Shown: piece after piece, positions 4,010 to 61,756 of the stretch
Numbering within the stretch: the stretch's first letter is position 1
Layout: each line of letters opens with the position of its first letter
From: Octopus vulgaris
Lineage: Eukaryota
DNA: 64,000 nt
Direction: 5' to 3'
NCBI GenBank assembly: GCA_951406725.2
Contig: OX597816.1
Span: 54,312,001-54,376,000, forward strand
Notes under the pieces: model-generated
The model's database searches: none
The model's input: only the letters and a program-made list of their open reading frames with translations
Told to the model about the DNA's origin: nothing
Made by a program: the position numbers and the translations under genes

Positions 4010-5566
<1,557 letters not shown>

Positions 5567-5574
5567 TATATATG

Positions 5575-5688
<114 letters not shown>

Positions 5689-5718
5689 AATATATATGTA
5701 TATATGTATACATATGCA

Positions 5719-6104
5719 CTAGTTGCAATACCCGGCGTTGCCCGAGTTAATGTTTCAGAGAACAGTTACATCGCAAAGGTCTTTATTTAACTTATAGTAA
5801 ATCTTTTCGAAAAAATACTCAGCGAAAGTTTGGACTAAGAACACTTTGTATACCTTTTTCTTTTTCTTTTACGAATATATTTTTGTTGGATAACCAAATT
5901 CCAAGCATATGCAAGTTCAACACCTTAAATGTTTGTACACAAATTCTAATCTTTTGAATCTCTTTTCAGTTTCTGCTTAAACATAATCCTTACCCTAACT
6001 CGAAATTGAAATCCTAAGTGGTAACACGAAAGCCTATCGTCGAATGCTAGCCCTCAGCGGAGCGAGAAAGAGCGTGATATGAAAGGCGTGTGTGTTTGGA
6101 GAGA

Positions 6105-29152: not shown

Positions 29153-29935
29153 CTATCCATATGGTATATTTATATTCGACATTTTAAATTTAGCCTTGTG
29201 CCTACATAAGTTCATTAATTCACTTCTTTGATTCAAAGAATTATTGTCTTTGAATAATATGTGCATTTTTTCTAATAAGCAGAGCCTGCACTTGAAATTA
29301 TATTTGTAAGCTCCATGCCTGTATGGTGCCGCCCTGTCCAGAATGCTCCATGTCACGTTGAAAGGTGGGGCTTCCTTTTCTTTTAGTTCCCAGACATATT
29401 TTGCTAGGCTGGTTTTCTTTCTGTTCTCTGGGTATTTAAAAGAATTCTTATGAGAATAAAATCTTGTTTTAAATGAATTTTCTGAAGCCCCTGTGTATGT
29501 CTTGTATTCCGATGAGCCTTCCACTTGCACCTTGGCTCTATAAACTACTCCTTTCACTAGACATTTCCCTTCTAACGGACAGGAGCTTTCGTTTTTGAAA
29601 TTACATTTCTTAATGGGCTCGGCACCATGTCTAATCTCAATTAGCTTCCTATTATGTTGGCTAATGTAAGAGGCGAAATTTCTGCAACAAGAATAGCTAA
29701 CCTTCAGGGTTCTTCTATTAAATATTCTGTAGAATTTATGACCCTGCCTAAAATGCTTAGAGACTAATCTCAAAAATTCTTTACCTATATTAGTCTTTAC
29801 GGCCAAATTGAAAGCCGGGTTGAACCACAAAACTTTCCTGGTCCTAGTTCTTCGTGCAGCATTATTATTAGCATTAAGCTGGTTGAACTGGATCTTCTCC
29901 GAGAATCCACTATTCTTTAATGCGCTATCGTAATA
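29153..29935 (-). CDS. PLE linker plus GIY-YIG endonuclease (inverted, more truncated copy)
   Basis: Same protein as 30154-30936 except CNC becomes CNF. Confidence 0.9.
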   Translation of the reverse strand, partial: YYDSALKNSGFSEKIQFNQLNANNNAARRTRTRKVLWFNPAFNLAVKTNIGKEFLRLVSKHFRQGHKFYRIFNRRTLKVSYSCCRNFASYISQHNRKLIEIRHGAEPIKKCNFKNESSCPLEGKCLVKGVVYRAKVQVEGSSEYKTYTGASENSFKTRFYSHKNSFKYPENRKKTSLAKYVWELKEKEAPPFNVTWSILDRAAPYRHGAYKYNFKCRLCLLEKMHILFKDNNSLNQRSELMNLCRHKAKFKMSNINIPYG

Positions 29936-29937
29936 AG

Positions 29938-30936
29938 ATAGATACTAACCTGAATAGTGTAGATTTTTTAGACGTAAATTTTAATGTAAGATCGGATAGA
30001 TTTAAACCTTTCCGTAAGCCCAATGAAAAGCTATCGTATATTAGCAAAGATTCGAACCATCCACCAGTTATCCTTAGCAACTTAGTCAGCAATGTAGGTA
30101 GAAGAATATCTTCAATTTCTTCGGACGAGGCAGCATTCCATAATGCTGCACCTTATTACGATAGCGCATTAAAGAATAGTGGATTCTCGGAGAAGATCCA
30201 GTTCAACCAGCTTAATGCTAATAATAATGCTGCACGAAGAACTAGGACCAGGAAAGTTTTGTGGTTCAACCCGGCTTTCAATTTGGCCGTAAAGACTAAT
30301 ATAGGTAAAGAATTTTTGAGATTAGTCTCTAAGCATTTTAGGCAGGGTCATAAATTCTACAGAATATTTAATAGAAGAACCCTGAAGGTTAGCTATTCTT
30401 GTTGCAGAAATTTCGCCTCTTACATTAGCCAACATAATAGGAAGCTAATTGAGATTAGACATGGTGCCGAGCCCATTAAGAAATGTAATTGCAAAAACGA
30501 AAGCTCCTGTCCGTTAGAAGGGAAATGTCTAGTGAAAGGAGTAGTTTATAGAGCCAAGGTGCAAGTGGAAGGCTCATCGGAATACAAGACATACACAGGG
30601 GCTTCAGAAAATTCATTTAAAACAAGATTTTATTCTCATAAGAATTCTTTTAAATACCCAGAGAACAGAAAGAAAACCAGCCTAGCAAAATATGTCTGGG
30701 AACTAAAAGAAAAGGAAGCCCCACCTTTCAACGTGACATGGAGCATTCTGGACAGGGCGGCACCATACAGGCATGGAGCTTACAAATATAATTTCAAGTG
30801 CAGGCTCTGCTTATTAGAAAAAATGCACATATTATTCAAAGACAATAATTCTTTGAATCAAAGAAGTGAATTAATGAACTTATGTAGGCACAAGGCTAAA
30901 TTTAAAATGTCGAATATAAATATACCATATGGATAG
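29938..30936 (+). CDS. PLE polyprotein C-terminus: end of RT/thumb, Cys-rich linker, GIY-YIG endonuclease (5'-truncated, no native start)
   Basis: VDFLDV and FRKPNEKLSYISKDSNHPP (PLE RT end), WFNPAFN, CNC-x5-CPLEGKC, GVVY...YTG...FKTRFYSH (GIY-YIG equivalent), and CRLCLLEK...NQRSE...CRHK. Confidence 0.92.
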   Translation: MDTNLNSVDFLDVNFNVRSDRFKPFRKPNEKLSYISKDSNHPPVILSNLVSNVGRRISSISSDEAAFHNAAPYYDSALKNSGFSEKIQFNQLNANNNAARRTRTRKVLWFNPAFNLAVKTNIGKEFLRLVSKHFRQGHKFYRIFNRRTLKVSYSCCRNFASYISQHNRKLIEIRHGAEPIKKCNCKNESSCPLEGKCLVKGVVYRAKVQVEGSSEYKTYTGASENSFKTRFYSHKNSFKYPENRKKTSLAKYVWELKEKEAPPFNVTWSILDRAAPYRHGAYKYNFKCRLCLLEKMHILFKDNNSLNQRSELMNLCRHKAKFKMSNINIPYG

Positions 30937-45269: not shown

Positions 45270-45678
45270 GGCGCAGGAGTGGCTGTGTGGTAAGTAGCTT
45301 GCTAACCAACCACATGGTTCCGGGTTCAGTCCCACTGTGTGGCACCTTGGGCAAGTGTCTTCTGCTATAGCCCCGGGCGGACCAAAGCCTTGTGAGTGGA
45401 TTTGGTAGACGGAAACTGAAAGAAGCCTGTCGTATATATGTATATATATATATATATGTATGTTTGTGTGTCTGTGTTTGTCTCCCTAGCATTGCTTGAC
45501 AACCGATGCTGGTGTGTTTACGTCCCCGTCATTTAGCGGTTCGGCAAAAGAGACCGATAGAATAAGTACTGGACTTACAAAGAATAAGTCCCGGGGTCGA
45601 TTTCCTCGACTAAAGGCGGTGCTCCAGCATGGCCGCAGTCAAATGACTGAAACAAGTAAAAGAGTAAAAGAGTAAAGA

Positions 45679-45680
<2 letters not shown>
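45270..45680 (+). mobile_element. Full-length family A SINE between (TA)n tracts
   Basis: Head GGCGCAGGAGTGGCTGTGTGGTAAG..GGTTCAGTCCC, internal (TA)n, and tail (GTAAAAGA)n. Confidence 0.9.
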
Positions 45681-47961: not shown

Positions 47962-48023
<62 letters not shown>

Positions 48024-48031
<8 letters not shown>

Positions 48032-48358
48032 TAAATTAGAGATAAAACCACTATTAGGCAAATCATACAATGAAAAACTTAAGCCAATACATAAGATTAA
48101 TTAATTTATATTATTTCAAATATATATCAAAATTATTAAAAAAGATAATTACTAATTATCTTTTTTTAATAATTTTGATATATATTTAAAATAATATAAA
48201 TTAATTAATCTTATGTATTGGCTTAAGTTTTTCATTATATGATTTGCCTAATAGTGGTTTTATCTCTAATTTAATATAATATAATATTTTACTATAAAAT
48301 TGGATTCAATCCTAAAACTGATTTTTCCCTGTAAGTTTGGATTTATTCCCTAGTATTT

Positions 48359-48362: not shown

Positions 48363-48420
<58 letters not shown>

Positions 48421-48421
<1 letters not shown>

Positions 48422-48971
48422 TAAATAAGCAACGATGATGTACAGATGTCAATTCATTACGGCCGTTTCAAATGACTCCTTGAATTGATTAATGAAAACA
48501 TTACATCATTTGAAATAAACCGTTCTCGTAGGATGACCGCATAGACTTCAAACAAAAAGGATAAAACCACTGCTTTAACATATTCACATCAATACTGGAA
48601 CTCAAAATATTTACATCATTTCTGTTGTCATACCTCTGGCAGAATGAGCCTCTGGCAGAATGAGCCTCTGGCAGAATGAGCCTCTGGCAGAATGAGCCTC
48701 TGGCAGAAGCCTCTGGCAGAATGAGCCTCTGGCAGAGTGAGACTCATTCTGCCAGAGGTATGAAAACAGAAATTATGTAAATATTTTGAGTTCCAGTATT
48801 GATGTGAATATGTTAATGACAGTGGTTTTATCCTTTTTGTTTGAAGTCTATGCGGTCATCTGACAAGAACGGTTTCTTCCACACGGTGTAATGTTTGTAT
48901 TAATCAATTAACGAAGTCGCTTGAAACGGCCGTAATGTATTGACACCTATACATCTTCGTTACTCATTTAT
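48421..48971. mobile_element. Older fold-back element with a central 16-bp tandem array and a decayed HHR in each arm
   Basis: Arms 48421-48648 and 48743-48971, with seven CCTCTGGCAGAATGAG units at 48633-48741. At 48857-48937: CAU-CUGACAA-GAACGGUUUC...GAAGUCGCUU-GAAA-CGGCCG-UA|AUG. Confidence 0.8.
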
Positions 48972-49228
48972 ATTTTACTCACCTACATAGGAATCTGCAC
49001 TTCGGAGATACTGTAGACAGTATCTTTATATAAGTATGTGTCTGAACTACCGAGAGCTGATCTCTTCACTCAGCTGGGTTGCGTTGTCTGCACACATGAC
49101 AGGGATATCAAGTGCAAACACTTCTTCACAGAGTTTTGATATTCAATATTCAATAAATATTGTTCGGGTGTGCGGATTATACCGACCTAACAAAGTGCCT
49201 AAATTTAAATACTTCATTCAACGGAATC

Positions 49229-51832: not shown

Positions 51833-52323
51833 AAGAGAGACAGAAAATGTCCGAAGCGATTTCTATTATTGCTCAGAAAGATTTCTAATTCTGTTAAGGA
51901 TGTTTAATTCTAATGTTTACCCGAATGAATATTTCTGAAGCCAGACATTTCGTTGTAAAGACTCGTCTCAGTCATCTCCTCCCTGCCCCCCCCCCCGAGT
52001 CTTACACCAAACGGCCTTGAGATGTTACACATAAATAAGATTCACTATACTTGCACAATTCAGAGATGACCACATAAAGATATTCAATGTTGCAACAATG
52101 TAAGACATTGTAGGTTATTCATTTAGCAAGAGATTTTGATCTGCGACCGTTCATCGGGAGTAAAACCAGTGGTAAGAAGTTTGATTCCCATCCACATGGT
52201 TCCAGGTTCAGTCCTACTGCGTGGCACCTTGGGCAAGTATTTTCTTCTAAAGCTTGTGAGTGGATTAGGTAGACGGAAACTGAAAATCTCTCAAAGCTTT
52301 TGACTCAACCTCGTACATATATA

Positions 52324-52745
52324 GAAGTAATGTTTATCGCCATATCAATATCGCTAATCCGTACGGATCAACATTACTACCGCATTTAACCCCAAGAGGA
52401 TTATCGACGTAATCTGCACCCGATATATATTGCAATCAGGGGAGCAAACTCTTATCATCATCCAGCAGTCGACGGAATTACCAGACCGTACTGTTTCGGG
52501 ATATTTGTGCCCATCTTCAGTGGTGAGCACACCCGTCCGTTAGAGATAGCAGTGATTCACTCCCTTATTTGCAATATACAGTATACCGGGTTCAGATTAC
52601 ATCTATAAGCAGCTGGAGGAGGCTCCTCCCGCGGTTAAAAACAGTAGCAACGTCGACTCCAATGGAACAGCCATATTGATGTTGCGATAAACGCCCCTTC
52701 TCAGCAGAGTTCCTATTTTCCTCTCTTATAGAGATTTTCGAACTG
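52324..52745 (-). mobile_element. Rod-shaped retrozyme/viroid-like non-coding unit with an apical hammerhead
   Basis: Nested pairings GTTTATCGC/GCGATAAAC, ATATCAATAT/ATATTGATGT, TTTAACC/GGTTAAA, GTAATCTG.ACCCG/CGGGT.CAGATTAC and TATATTGCAA/TTGCAATATA enclose the HHR. Confidence 0.75.
52480..52524 (-). ncRNA. Type-I hammerhead ribozyme
   Basis: ACCA-CUGAAGA-U-GGGCAC(AAAU)AUCCC-GAAA-CAGUACGG-UC|UGGU, with near-palindromic stem III. Confidence 0.8.
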
Positions 52746-53167: not shown

Positions 53168-53249
<82 letters not shown>

Positions 53250-53465
53250 GCAATAATAATTCTCTAAATGAGATATAGACAGTAACTGCTCCATAACATA
53301 AGGGACTAAAGCCATCTGAATATGGCTAGGGACAGGGCAGGGTGGTGGGGGTGTTACTGTTGCATTTAGCCCCAGGCGAACATCGACGTCGCCAGATAGG
53401 CTTGACACCATCACGGTGTCCTTTAACCTGCAAAGGGAGATAATTCACCGATGAAGCGGAAACCA

Positions 53466-53511
53466 CACACGGACCATGGTTTCAAGGTGTATTGCCTATC
53501 ATCAACGTGTG
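53466..53511 (-). ncRNA. Type-I hammerhead (inverted unit)
   Basis: Exact reverse complement of 53592-53637. Confidence 0.82.
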
Positions 53512-53591
53512 GTAGGCCCCCGCTTCCTCGACGAAAATCTATATATGAATATCCTGCAGAGTGAGATTTCGTCGAGGAAGCGGGGGCCTAC

Positions 53592-53637
53592 CACACGTTG
53601 ATGATAGGCAATACACCTTGAAACCATGGTCCGTGTG
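53592..53637 (+). ncRNA. Type-I hammerhead (unit 1), U3 variant
   Basis: CACACG-UUGAUGA-U-AGG(CAAUACA)CCU-U-GAAA-CCAUGG-UC|CGUGUG. Predicted cut after 53631. Confidence 0.85.
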
Positions 53638-53952
53638 TGGTTTCCGCTTCATCGGGGAATTATCTCCGTTTGCAGGTTAAAGGACACCGTGATGGTGTCA
53701 AGCCTATCTGGCGACGTCGTGTTCGCCTGGGGCTAAATGCAACAGTAACACCCCCACCACCCTGCCCTGTCCCTAGCCATATTCAAATGGCTTTAGTCCC
53801 TTATGTTATGGAGCAGTTACTGTCTATATCTCATTTAGAGAATTATTATTGCTGTCGAACAGATTTTCGAAATCAGCAAATGTATTTTGCTTGAAAAATC
53901 TATATATGAATATCCTGCAGAGTGAGATTTCGTCGAGGAAGCGGGGGCCTAC

Positions 53953-53998
53953 CACACGTTGATGATAGGCAATACACCTTGAAACCATGGTCCGTGTG
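53953..53998 (+). ncRNA. Type-I hammerhead (unit 2)
   Basis: Identical to unit 1. Predicted cut after 53992, which is 361 nt from the first. Confidence 0.85.
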
Positions 53999-54187
53999 TG
54001 GTTTCCGCTTCATCGGTGAATTATCTCCCTTTGCAGGTTAAAGGACACCGTGATGGTGTCAAGCCTATCTGGCGACGTCGATGTTCGCCTGGGGCTAAAT
54101 GCAACAGTAACACCCCCACCACCCTGCCCTGTCCCTAGCCATATTCAGATGGCTTTAGTCCCTTATGTTATATATATATAATTTGAT

Positions 54188-55149: not shown

Positions 55150-55562
55150 TATTTCTTTACTACCCACAAGGGGCTAAACATAGAGGGGACAAACAAGGAC
55201 AAACAAGGGGATTAAGTCGAATACATCGACCCAGTGCGAAACTGGTACTTTATTTATCGACCCCGTGAGGATGAAAGGCAAAGTCGACCTCGGCGGAATT
55301 TGAACTCAGAACGTAAGGACAGACGAAATACCTATTTCTTTACTACCCACAAGGGGCTAAACACATAGAGGACAAACAAGGACAGACAAACGGATTAAGT
55401 CGATTATATTGACCCCAGTGCGTAACAGGTACTTACTTAATCGACCCCGAAAGGATGAAAGGCAAAGTCGACCTCGGCGGAATTTGAACTCAGAACGTAT
55501 CTCAGACGAAATACGGCTACGCATTTCGCCCGGCGTGCTAACGTTTCTGCCAGCTCGCCGCC
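55150..55562 (-). mobile_element. Family C SINE with tandemly duplicated 3' part
   Basis: TATTTCTTTACTACCCACAAGGGGCTAAACA at ~55150 and ~55333. Head at ~55520-55562. Confidence 0.85.
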
Positions 55563-59493: not shown

Positions 59494-61756
59494 GAAAGAA
59501 GAAACATGGCAAAATATTTAGTAAACGAAGAAGACTTCCTATAGTATGCTGCTAGAGCAGAAGGGGTTAGCGAAAATGGACTTGAGAGTGCTCATTAATT
59601 CCGAATAAGAACAGCCAACAAGAGAGAAGAAACCCTCTTCCGTATGGAATTACATGGCCAATTTACACCGCGAAACCAAGTTAAAAGACCAGGGTGCATC
59701 ATGGAGGTTGCTCTAGAAGGGTGACCTTAAAAAAGAATACAGAAAGCCTAATACGCGCAGCCCAGGCCCAGGTATTGAATACCAACTCAGTGAAAAAGAA
59801 TATATCCCACACAAGTGCATCTCTGCAGAATGTGTGGGAAGAGGGTCGAATGTGTGACTCACATTGTTAGTGCTTGTGAAAGTCGTGATCAGAATGAGTA
59901 CAAGCGTAGACACGACAAGGTAGCCCAACACCTCCACTGGCTACTTTGCCGTAAGTATGGATATCAGGTTACGGATGTTTGGTACCAACTTACACCGGAG
60001 AAGGCAATGGACGAAAAGGGAAAGCAAAAATCCTCTGGGACTTTGAATTCCAGACAGTTAAGGAGTTAGAGAACCGAAGGCCGGTTATATCAGGTCATCC
60101 CATAAGTTCTGTCTGAATTTTGAATAAAGAAAACAAGTGATCAAATGTTATATTTAATTGAGATTTAATCATCAATGTACTTTCCCTGATTATCTATGAC
60201 TTCCTTCCATCTATTTACAAGTTTTTTAATCCCATCAATGTAAAACTCTTTTGGTTTAAAAACTCTGAAATGTTAGTTTCGACCTCCTCCTGGCTTGCGG
60301 AAGTTATGTTCCCCCAATGATTCTGTAAACTACGAAACAAATGATAGTCTGAAAGAGCAAGGTCGAGAGAATAAGGTGGATGAAGAATTTTTTCCCAACC
60401 AAGCTCTTCGATCTTCTGTGATGTGATATTTGCAGTGTGGGGTCGCGCATTGTCCTGATGAAACATCACTCCTTTTCGACTCACTAATCTTTTTTCTTCA
60501 AAGCTTGGTTCAAACGCTCTAATTGCTGATAATTGACTTGAGCATTGATTGTTGCATTAGGTGGTAACAATTCAAAGTGAATTACAGATAGAGAGAAGAA
60601 CCTTTTCCCCATGAAGTTCCCTTCTCGTTTGTGGTTGAGCTTTTCCCCTTCTATGAAGCCACTGTTTACGACGTTTAACATTTCGATAGACGATCCATTT
60701 TTCGTCACCAGTCCCAATTCTATCCACAAAGGGTGAAATTAGTTCGCGAGAATGGAGAGAAGAGCAAATGTCAACTTGGGATTTGCGGTTGCTTTCGGAC
60801 AATTCCCGAGGCACCCATTTTCCAAGTTTAGGAACCTTTCCAAGTTGTTGAAGATGACGATGAACAGTTGAACTGAGCTTTATTGCCAATTCTTCAATTG
60901 ATAATGCAGGATTTTCTTCAAGTAATGCCTCAAGGAGCTTATCATCAAACTCAACTGGACGTCCAGTTCAATCTTCGTCTTCAAGGCTGAAATCTTCATT
61001 TCTGAGTTTTGCAAACCATCTTCTGCAATTATTTCGTTCAAGCATTCTTTCCCATAAACTGAGTGTATGTTTCGTTTCGCTTCGGCAGCAGAGTTTCCTT
61101 TTTTGTACTCATAAAGCATTATGTGCCTTAAATGCTCTTTGGATACTTCCATGTTACAAAAGGTTTTAATCAAAAAAATTTTAATTCTATTATTCTGTAA
61201 AATAATATTTAATTAGCTTAAATGTACACAAATGCATAAAAATAATTTTAAATACCATTAGACATTCTAAAATACTATTAAATTTCATTTAATTTTAAAA
61301 ATGTTAAAATCGGACAGAACTCATGGGATGACCTGATAGTAACCTCTAGGAGGGACAAACAAGAGTGCCTAATAATTGATGTGGCAGAGCCAGGAGATCA
61401 ACATATTATCATGAAAGAAAGAGAAAAGTTTGATAAATATGGAGATCTGAGAATTGAGATCGCTAAGATGTGGCAGCTACGAGAGTCAAACATAAAGATT
61501 ATCCTTATTGTCATCGGAGCATTGGGTTCAATACCACCCAATCTGAAAGAAAACTGAAACATCTGAAAACCTTAGAAATACCCTACAATCTAGGTATATT
61601 GCAAAGGCCGTCATTAGTTGCGACTGCACGCATATTGTGTAAAGTACTGTCTGTCTGAGGTCCTTGTTGCGCCTTGACAATCAGTATAAAAACCCCCGGT
61701 TGACACAATATCTTCAATCAACAACCGCACGACATTGTATATTGTGCGACGTCTAT
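59494..61756 (+). mobile_element. 5'-truncated R4/Dong-type LINE inside an (AAT)n tract, split by a mariner
   Basis: LCRMCGKRVECVTHIVSAC..EYKRRHDKVAQHLHWLLC, ILWDFEFQT..RRPVI|V..CLIIDVAEPGD..KEREKFDKYGDL and IPIVIGALG. (AAT)n at 59366-59493 and from ~61757. Confidence 0.9.
60090..61336 (-). mobile_element. Full-length mariner (DD34D) transposon with frameshifted transposase
   Basis: TIRs TCAGGTCATCCCATAAGTTCTGTC and GACAGAACTCATGGGATGACCTGA, with TA TSD at 60088-89 and 61337-38. Motifs: HLRHIMLYEY, WVPREL, TGDEKW, HQDNARPH, HPPYSLDLALSDYHLF. Confidence 0.95.

What the first reader, a model, noticed from the sequence alone, without database searches (positions are those of the whole stretch)
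52324..52745. Second family: ~370-420-nt rod-like RNA with a hammerhead at its apex
Seen: five nested complementary blocks (52332-40/52684-92, 52342-51/52673-82, ~52385-91/52633-39, 52409-22/52587-600, 52426-35/52569-78) form a largely unbranched rod. It encloses a minus-strand HHR with an intact CUGAAGA/GAAA/GUC core. The mismatches and bulges look like an RNA fold rather than a fresh DNA inverted duplication. It shares short motifs with the 53-kb unit (ATTACTACCGCATTTAACCCCAAG..ATCGACGT versus GTTACTGTTGCATTTAGCCCCAGG..ATCGACGT) but is otherwise different. Inference: a genomic copy of a viroid-like rod circRNA from a diversified group.
Basis: partly seen in the sequence, partly recalled or inferred. 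Interest (0 to 1): 0.85.

Follow-up and report, generated by a model that had tools for sequence, protein, structure and literature searches.

The report
Inverted double copy of ribozyme repeat
This hairpin-shaped stretch is an old insertion of a common ~360-base mobile repeat carrying a self-cutting RNA, and the long rod comes from two copies joined head to head, so it is most likely a by-product of jumping rather than a captured viroid.

Summary
The rod and the type I hammerhead (minus strand, core 52520-52484) are real, but the viroid-like reading is not supported. The stretch is one old copy of an abundant ~360-nt non-coding repeat (at least 47 distinct loci examined, 75-84% alike). The normal unit has one hammerhead on a ~50-bp native stem and folds as a branched circle. 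Copies sit as solos, partial tandems or head-to-head inversions. The outer half of this rod is two copies of the same downstream segment. They are 72% alike, no closer than unrelated copies, with no G-U excess once inverted loci are pooled. One end carries a 43-nt tail that the other lacks, the signature of Penelope-like elements (PLEs). The 53-kb unit is a young colinear sister family that shows the same rule in 15 of 16 inverted loci, mostly within (TA)n. The hammerhead shows two compensatory pairs between subfamilies. Best reading: a non-autonomous PLE-mobilised retrozyme, inserted by priming both target strands, with the two cDNAs joined within the native stem. The partner PLE, cleavage and circular RNA are not shown.

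The parts
52324..52745 (.). Whole insertion: one 5'-truncated unit on the minus strand plus a shorter 5'-truncated unit head to head on the plus strand
   Evidence: Profile hits of the family model: positions 25-304 on the hammerhead strand and 124-343 inverted; flanks ACATATATA and TATATACAT
52324..52423 (-). Downstream segment of the unit, ending at the family's short 3' end (model position ~299), followed by ATATAT-like flank; it carries a 15-nt deletion
   Evidence: The end was read by eye: the automatic end call of 337 ran into the neighbouring repeat
52424..52483 (-). 3' strand of the native extended stem I
   Evidence: Pairs with the upstream strand in natural monomers: about 51 bp in the family majority, 46 outer pairs of which 6 are G-U; this part alone folds at z -4.1
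52484..52520 (-). Type I hammerhead core: CUGAAGA, one extra U before a 3-bp stem II, GAAA, short near-palindromic helix III, GUC cut site
   Evidence: The helix III palindrome is weakened in this copy (duplex -4.4 versus -16.4 kcal/mol for the family majority)
52521..52562 (-). Native 5' strand of stem I
   Evidence: Matches the upstream strand of ordinary copies
52559..52581 (.). Inversion junction, in register with the native stem; best placed 39-43 nt upstream of the core (52559-52563), alternatively 61 nt (52581)
   Evidence: Split-alignment scan. A 468-nt contig of run X19 spans it with 1 difference; that run may be the source of the assembly
52563..52701 (+). Inverted second copy of the downstream segment; forms the outer left arm of the rod
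   Evidence: 85% to the family majority, 72/100 to the other arm, same subfamily letters at both diagnostic sites of this segment
52702..52744 (+). 43-nt 'tail' present at this end only; it stops about 13-16 nt short of the commonest long end of the family
   Evidence: unpaired with the rod
53249..54171 (.). Young sister element (361-nt period): inverted copy with 44-nt tail (53249-53536) plus partial tandem (53534-54171), three hammerheads, (TA)n on both sides

Best explanation
An old genomic copy of a non-autonomous, hammerhead-bearing ~360-nt repeat (metazoan non-LTR retrozyme type) moved in trans by a Penelope-like RT/GIY-YIG protein. (1) Shown: the unit is a ~360-nt monomer with one type I hammerhead on a ~50-bp stem I, in solos, partial tandems and inversions. 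(2) Inferred from known retrozymes: tandem copies are transcribed, and the hammerhead, alone or as a dimer through its palindromic helix III, cuts out monomers that can circularise. (3) Inferred from the two fixed 3' ends and published PLE biochemistry: a PLE protein nicks both strands of a TA-rich target and starts reverse transcription at two internal sites that bound the tail, one per strand. (4) Inferred: the two inward-growing cDNAs are joined at complementary sequence. Here they met inside the native stem, whose strands make the cDNA ends complementary, giving a seamless hairpin with the ribozyme at its tip. (5) Shown: since then the two arms have changed independently, each by ~15%. The rod is an insertion product, not the replicating unit, and this copy is probably inert.
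For: Family size: 833 and 1905 first-look candidates, 40 scored each. Of 47 distinct loci, about 19 are partial tandems and 14 carry an inverted copy. Arm-to-arm identity is 72%, versus 78 +/- 6% between unrelated loci (2323 pairs). Only 2 of 100 positions share a non-majority letter; one is a subfamily marker. G-U:A-C is 91:87 over 14 inverted loci and 49:41 over 6 rod-type loci (p 0.46). Five rods with the hammerhead at the tip have junctions 39-43, 16, 13-15, 10-11 and 12-14 nt upstream of the core, from both subfamilies, with the tail on either side; two similar hairpins lack an intact hammerhead. Left arms of different rods are no closer to each other (74%) than to right arms (75%). Sister family: 16 of 24 loci are inverted; 15 of these 16 have one end at 238-243 and the other at 283-287; 31 of 40 3' ends run into ATAT; most junctions overlap by 1-23 nt. 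The extra nucleotide before stem II and the palindromic helix III are PLE-hammerhead traits (PMC4209133). Partial tandems, inverted 5'-truncated copies and a one-sided tail are PLE traits (PMC8557442). A PLE protein nicks and extends both strands and starts at two sites that bound the tail (PMC11167929). The genome holds intact PLE frames, including a 781-aa Neptune-like family ending in (TA)n with an optional 38-nt tail.
Against: No autonomous partner with a homologous terminal repeat was found: neither PLE family examined aligns to the units above shuffle level (z -1.4 to 1.5; no homologous terminal repeat in 34 PLE loci, the one profile hit being an antisense old-family copy in a flank). 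In the old family the one-short/one-long rule holds in only 10 of 14 inverted loci, where about 7 are expected by chance, and the usual tail is ~55-60 nt, longer than the 30-40 nt in print. Taken alone, this copy has a G-U excess on the hammerhead strand (13:4). In-register joins were not found in the young family (0 matches, against 78 for the native arrangement), so step 4 is not general. Cleavage, transcription and circular RNA were not tested.
Confidence: 0.82

Rival explanations
1. Genomic copy of a viroid-like rod circular RNA that replicates as a rod.
For: Very stable rod, stronger on the hammerhead strand; intact core; 13:4 G-U excess in this copy; five rod copies with the ribozyme at the tip were found.
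Against: Most copies have no second arm; the natural monomer circle is branched; the arms are two copies of one segment and decayed independently; junctions and tail sides differ between rods; two hairpins lack an intact ribozyme; no ribozyme on the other strand; a 43-nt unpaired tail sits at one end.
Confidence: 0.04
2. Same element and helper, but the inversion arose by snap-back of a single cDNA (its 3' end folding onto its own copy of the native stem) or by later DNA recombination between two copies, not by priming of both target strands.
For: Junction in register with the native stem; both arms carry the same subfamily letters; non-majority letters are shared somewhat more within inverted loci (2.8 per 100 nt) than between loci (1.6).
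Against: A snap-back copy cannot be longer than its template, yet here the inverted arm runs 43 nt past the end of the direct arm; in the sister family the two ends differ by the tail in 15 of 16 inverted loci.
Confidence: 0.08
3. The units are solo terminal repeats (pLTRs) left by truncated insertions of an autonomous PLE, not an independent non-coding element.
For: Most old loci are solos or short partial tandems; the hammerhead has the PLE-type extra nucleotide; only 40 candidates per search were scored, so a coding parent may have been missed.
Against: In tandems the unit is followed directly by the next unit with a ~361-nt period and no coding sequence between; the sister family forms arrays of up to about ten monomers; no shared sequence outside the unit was seen in the alignments and loci inspected.
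Confidence: 0.04
4. A MITE or foldback DNA transposon whose terminal inverted repeats happen to enclose a hammerhead-like motif.
For: Long inverted arms and TA-rich flanks at this locus.
Against: 33 of 47 loci lack inverted arms; copies are 5'-truncated with preferred 3' ends; tandems are common; ends are unequal by a tail; the hammerhead covaries.
Confidence: 0.02

Closest known systems
Metazoan non-LTR retrozymes (PMC7229834, e.g. the 350-390-bp mussel repeats; bioRxiv 10.64898/2026.07.22.740005)
   Same: Non-coding 150-450-bp unit, one type I hammerhead per unit, short palindromic helix III, tandem and solo copies, GC below 50%, self-paired branched circle, co-occurrence with PLEs.
   Different: This locus is a head-to-head inversion, not a tandem. 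The hammerhead has the PLE-type extra nucleotide, a 3-bp stem II and a ~50-bp stem I extension. Two fixed 3' ends and a tail are evident; 'inverted' does not occur in the main text of PMC7229834, and I saw no such description in the three parts of the preprint read. Expression and circles are not shown here.
Penelope-like elements with pLTR hammerheads (PMC4209133; PMC8557442; PMC11167929), Neptune clade nearest by target
   Same: Extra nucleotide between core positions 9 and 10.1, palindromic loop 3, 5' truncation, partial tandems, inverted 5'-truncated copy, tail at one end, (TA)n targets, ~10-nt target duplications at two non-microsatellite sites of the sister family.
   Different: No RT/GIY-YIG frame; tail 43-60 nt rather than 30-40; no sequence link to the two PLE families examined.
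Viroids and viroid-like rod circular RNAs with hammerheads (recalled; search listing only)
   Same: Size ~370 nt, rod fold, hammerhead at one end.
   Different: One polarity only has a ribozyme; the rod's outer half is a DNA-level duplicate; hundreds to thousands of retro-inserted copies mostly without the second arm.

Membership tests
Metazoan non-LTR retrozyme | Type I hammerhead in each unit | tested here: met
   Core intact here and in 19 of 44 copies; cells with a change on both sides 57 versus 32.7 +/- 6.5 in shuffles, driven by two subfamily pairs
Metazoan non-LTR retrozyme | 150-450-bp non-coding unit in tandem and solo copies | tested here: met
   ~361-nt period; about 19 of 47 loci are partial tandems; this locus itself is an inversion; no open frame of 110 aa or more overlaps it
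Metazoan non-LTR retrozyme | No LTR, primer-binding site or polypurine tract of plant LTR retrozymes; type I not type III ribozyme | tested here: inconclusive
   Ribozyme is type I and no LTR-internal-LTR layout was seen; primer-binding site and polypurine tract were not searched for
Metazoan non-LTR retrozyme | Self-cleavage and accumulation as monomer linear/circular RNA | not testable with these tools
   No run on record as RNA; only assembled contigs available
Penelope-like (PLE-mobilised, non-autonomous) | 5' truncation, partial tandems, inverted 5'-truncated copy | tested here: met
Penelope-like (PLE-mobilised, non-autonomous) | Optional tail, usually at one end only | tested here: met
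   This locus; 15 of 16 inverted loci of the sister family; weaker, 10 of 14, in the old family
Penelope-like (PLE-mobilised, non-autonomous) | Sequence shared with the terminal repeat of an autonomous PLE in the same genome | tested here: inconclusive
   None found in 34 PLE loci; the search covered only the best-scoring families
Autonomous PLE | RT plus GIY-YIG reading frame | tested here: not met
   No such frame in or beside the element
Viroid-like rod circular RNA | The replicating unit itself is a rod kept by compensatory change | tested here: not met
   Monomer circle has 6-9 hairpins; outer arms show no compensation or pooled G-U bias
Viroid-like rod circular RNA | Ribozymes in both polarities (typical, recalled) | tested here: not met
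   Plus strand has no hammerhead by my scan and no Rfam ribozyme at E up to 10
Viroid-like rod circular RNA | RNA-to-RNA replication, both-strand RNA | not testable with these tools
   Contigs give no strand
MITE | Fixed terminal inverted repeats and constant short target duplication in all copies | tested here: not met
   33 of 47 loci have no inverted arm; ends are unequal

The most novel reading that the evidence does not exclude
The long native stem under the hammerhead steers how the two cDNAs of a two-ended PLE insertion are joined, so retrozyme insertions repeatedly and independently create seamless ~370-nt rods capped by an intact ribozyme (five found; four junctions 10-16 nt from the core). 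This would be a concrete genomic route from a branched retrozyme to a viroid-shaped RNA. The two fixed ends would also be direct footprint evidence that animal retrozymes use PLE machinery.
Probability: 0.25. Interest if true: 0.6.

Novelty: new member of a known kind. Interest (0 to 1): 0.33.

Why it matters
The rod alone matters little: it is a decayed insertion. The family matters modestly. The papers read argue the retrozyme-PLE link from shared ribozyme type, co-occurrence and terminal-repeat phylogeny. Here two related ~360-nt families carry the PLE insertion footprint itself: two fixed 3' ends, a one-sided tail, head-to-head inversion and TA targets. The young sister family gives exact predicted start sites for an in vitro test. 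It also warns that screens for 'rod plus hammerhead' in genomes or transcriptomes will pick up such inversions as false viroid-like RNAs. My searches found no report of this family, but repeat libraries and supplements were not seen.

Tried and rejected
Rfam: nothing at gathering level in the window; at E up to 10 around the locus, only microsatellite-driven miRNA/snoRNA noise and no ribozyme. Expression: no RNA holder listed for the young unit; contigs from three runs guessed to be RNA touch both units, but none covers 52518-52584; this is no evidence either way. Partner search: a recalled Pfam accession was not in the library. The 727-aa PLE family of the window had no Pfam or PDB match and an unrelated terminal repeat. 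The 781-aa Neptune-like family shares the target and two-end behaviour but no sequence. The old-family hit beside the GIY-YIG frame in L138 is antisense and unique to that locus, so I treated it as a chance neighbour. In-register rods in the young family: 0 found with an exact two-motif pattern, control 78. RNA editing as the source of this copy's G-U excess: 8 A>G changes on the hammerhead strand among 33, but no pooled excess across loci, so not pursued. 5' ends at the ribozyme cut site: no clustering seen by eye. A propagating rod subfamily: rejected, as junctions, subfamilies and tail sides differ. Earlier findings of the scan: none by place, words or sequence.

Full report
Observation. 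The five complementary blocks are present as stated (9/9, 9/10, 7/7, 13/14, 10/10). The 422-nt stretch folds as a rod on both strands, better on the minus strand (-173.9 kcal/mol, z -11.7; plus -140.6, z -8.4). The minus strand holds a type I hammerhead: CUGAAGA at 52520-52514, one extra U, a 3-bp stem II, GAAA at 52497-52494, a short near-palindromic helix III and the GUC cut site ending at 52484. The plus strand has none. The last ~45 nt do not pair into the rod.

The family. The window lies in a 2.8-Gb animal genome; its repeats look octopus-like to me, which is recalled and comes from no call. Searches with the rod and with an ordinary copy gave 833 and 1905 first-look candidates, of which 40 were scored each time, so counts are lower bounds and favour copies like the query. 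Sixty loci reduced to 47 distinct ones. The unit is about 361 nt: an upstream strand, the hammerhead, a complementary downstream strand, a further segment, and a tail that runs on into the next unit. About 19 of 47 loci are partial tandems and 14 of 47 carry an inverted copy (two profile hits caused by the native stem were dropped). Six natural monomers (five old, one young) folded as circles gave 6-9 hairpins and 60-68% pairing on the hammerhead strand, z -1.5 to -4.5. Only the ~50-bp stem under the ribozyme is rod-like.

The hammerhead is real. Its 12 core letters are intact in 19 of 44 copies, and non-CpG core positions match the majority in 94% of cases against 88% elsewhere. On 43 copies, cells with a change on both sides number 57, against 32.7 +/- 6.5 in shuffles and 11-26 with slid partners. 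Most of this comes from two pairs, one in stem I (18 versus 18) and one in stem II (18 versus 13), that separate two subfamilies. That is two events, not 57, and the shuffle ignores relatedness. The young sister family keeps the same long stem with 45-50% identity. In this copy the helix III palindrome is weakened (duplex -4.4 versus -16.4 kcal/mol) and there is no second hammerhead in tandem, so it is probably a poor cutter (inference).

What the rod is. The outer left arm (52563-52701) is the reverse complement of the same downstream segment that forms the outer right arm. The two are identical at 72 of 100 positions; each is 84-85% like the family majority; unrelated loci average 78 +/- 6%. 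Two of 100 positions share a non-majority letter, one a subfamily marker. If the rod were kept as RNA, transitions should favour G-U on one strand. This copy shows 13 G-U to 4 A-C, which on its own is borderline. Pooled over 14 inverted loci the ratio is 91:87 (101:103 with the spurious fifteenth), and over six rod-type loci 49:41. The bulges are therefore what two copies give after decaying apart.

The junction. It lies in register with the native stem, 39-43 nt upstream of the core (alternatively 61 nt). A contig of run X19 spans it with one difference; that run may be the assembly's source, so it speaks only against an assembly error. Three of the first 47 loci are such rods. A search with a junction stretch added two among 21 new loci, plus two hairpins without an intact hammerhead. 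The five junctions lie 39-43, 16, 13-15, 10-11 and 12-14 nt from the core, in both subfamilies, with the tail on either side. Left arms of different rods are not more alike than left versus right arms (74% versus 75%). They arose independently. Whether they exceed chance is open: both searches favoured rods, and the young family gave 0 in-register matches against 78 native ones.

The ends. In the old family 16 of 61 3' ends fall at model positions 291-306 and 28 of 61 at 349-366; 18 of 61 are followed by TATA/ATAT, against 10% background. This locus has a short end at 52324 and a long end at 52744, 43 nt further. One short plus one long end holds in 10 of 14 inverted old loci (about 7 expected). 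In the young family, 16 of 24 loci are inverted, 15 of the 16 have ends at 238-243 and 283-287, 31 of 40 3' ends run into ATAT, two non-microsatellite sites show 10-nt target duplications, and most junctions overlap by 1-23 nt.

Mechanism. Craig et al. (PMC8557442; passages seen) describe PLE insertions as 5'-truncated partial tandems, often with an inverted copy and a 30-40-bp tail at one end, with microsatellite bias. Cervera and de la Pena (PMC4209133; parts 1-2 of 4) report the extra nucleotide before stem II and the palindromic loop 3 as traits of PLE hammerheads. PMC11167929 (passages) shows a PLE protein nicking and extending both target strands, starting at two internal sites that bound the tail, and not needing ribozyme cleavage. 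PMC7229834 (passages and parts 2-3 of 6) shows 350-390-bp mussel repeats expressed as circles. The 2026 preprint (10.64898/2026.07.22.740005; parts 1-3 of 5) ties animal retrozymes to PLEs. From these I infer priming of both strands at the two start sites and joining of the two cDNAs at complementary sequence, here the native stem. A single snap-back cannot make the copy longer than its template.

The helper. The genome has a very young 727-aa RT/GIY-YIG family, one inverted copy of which is in the window, and a 781-aa family with a CxxC-type linker, Neptune-like by my reading, that ends in (TA)n with an optional 38-nt tail. Neither shares detectable sequence with the units. The second is the better candidate by target and tail only.

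Novelty. This is a new member of a known kind. Searches for hammerhead/retrozyme/Penelope, hammerhead with octopus, and PLE inversion terms showed no description of this family or of stem-guided in-register inversions. Supplements and repeat libraries were not seen and may list it. Interest 0.33: the viroid claim falls, while the clean PLE footprint on a retrozyme family and the recurrent ribozyme-tipped rods are of moderate specialist value.

Noticed in passing
window 53249-54171: Young sister family (at least 1252 first-look candidates, 93-99% alike, arrays up to about ten monomers). Its hammerhead has U at core position 3 and an unpaired U on both sides of stem II. It is the best material for cleavage and insertion tests.
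   Followed up: yes
window 29153-30936 and flanks: Head-to-head inverted, truncated copy of a very young 727-aa RT plus GIY-YIG element (28,522 first-look candidates, many identical copies); no Pfam or PDB match; its terminal repeat has a minimal hammerhead-like motif.
   Followed up: partly
L150-L155: 781-aa Neptune-like PLE preceded by an overlapping or adjacent 330-480-aa upstream frame; 3' end in (TA)n with an optional 38-nt tail; a hammerhead-like motif with a U3-A8-type core about 100 nt before the end.
   Followed up: partly
L120-L147: Several other diverged GIY-YIG families of PLE type exist in the genome; any could be the helper of the old family.
   Followed up: no
window 48419-48973 and 48022-48283: Two further inverted repeats: 154-nt arms (86%) around a 16-nt minisatellite, and a near-perfect AT-rich 122-nt palindrome.
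   Followed up: no
window 55150-55499: Two head-to-tail ~183-nt SINE-like units; other SINE remnants at 45270-45680 and just left of the finding (about 52150-52290). The SINE label is recalled, not tested.
   Followed up: no
window 4514-5746 and 60215-61212: A LINE-type reverse transcriptase fragment and mariner-like transposase fragments, named from the translations by recall.
   Followed up: no
L162:1288-1704 (flipped) and L172:1294-1701: Hairpin insertions of the same family whose junction removes most of the hammerhead: rods without a ribozyme.
   Followed up: partly
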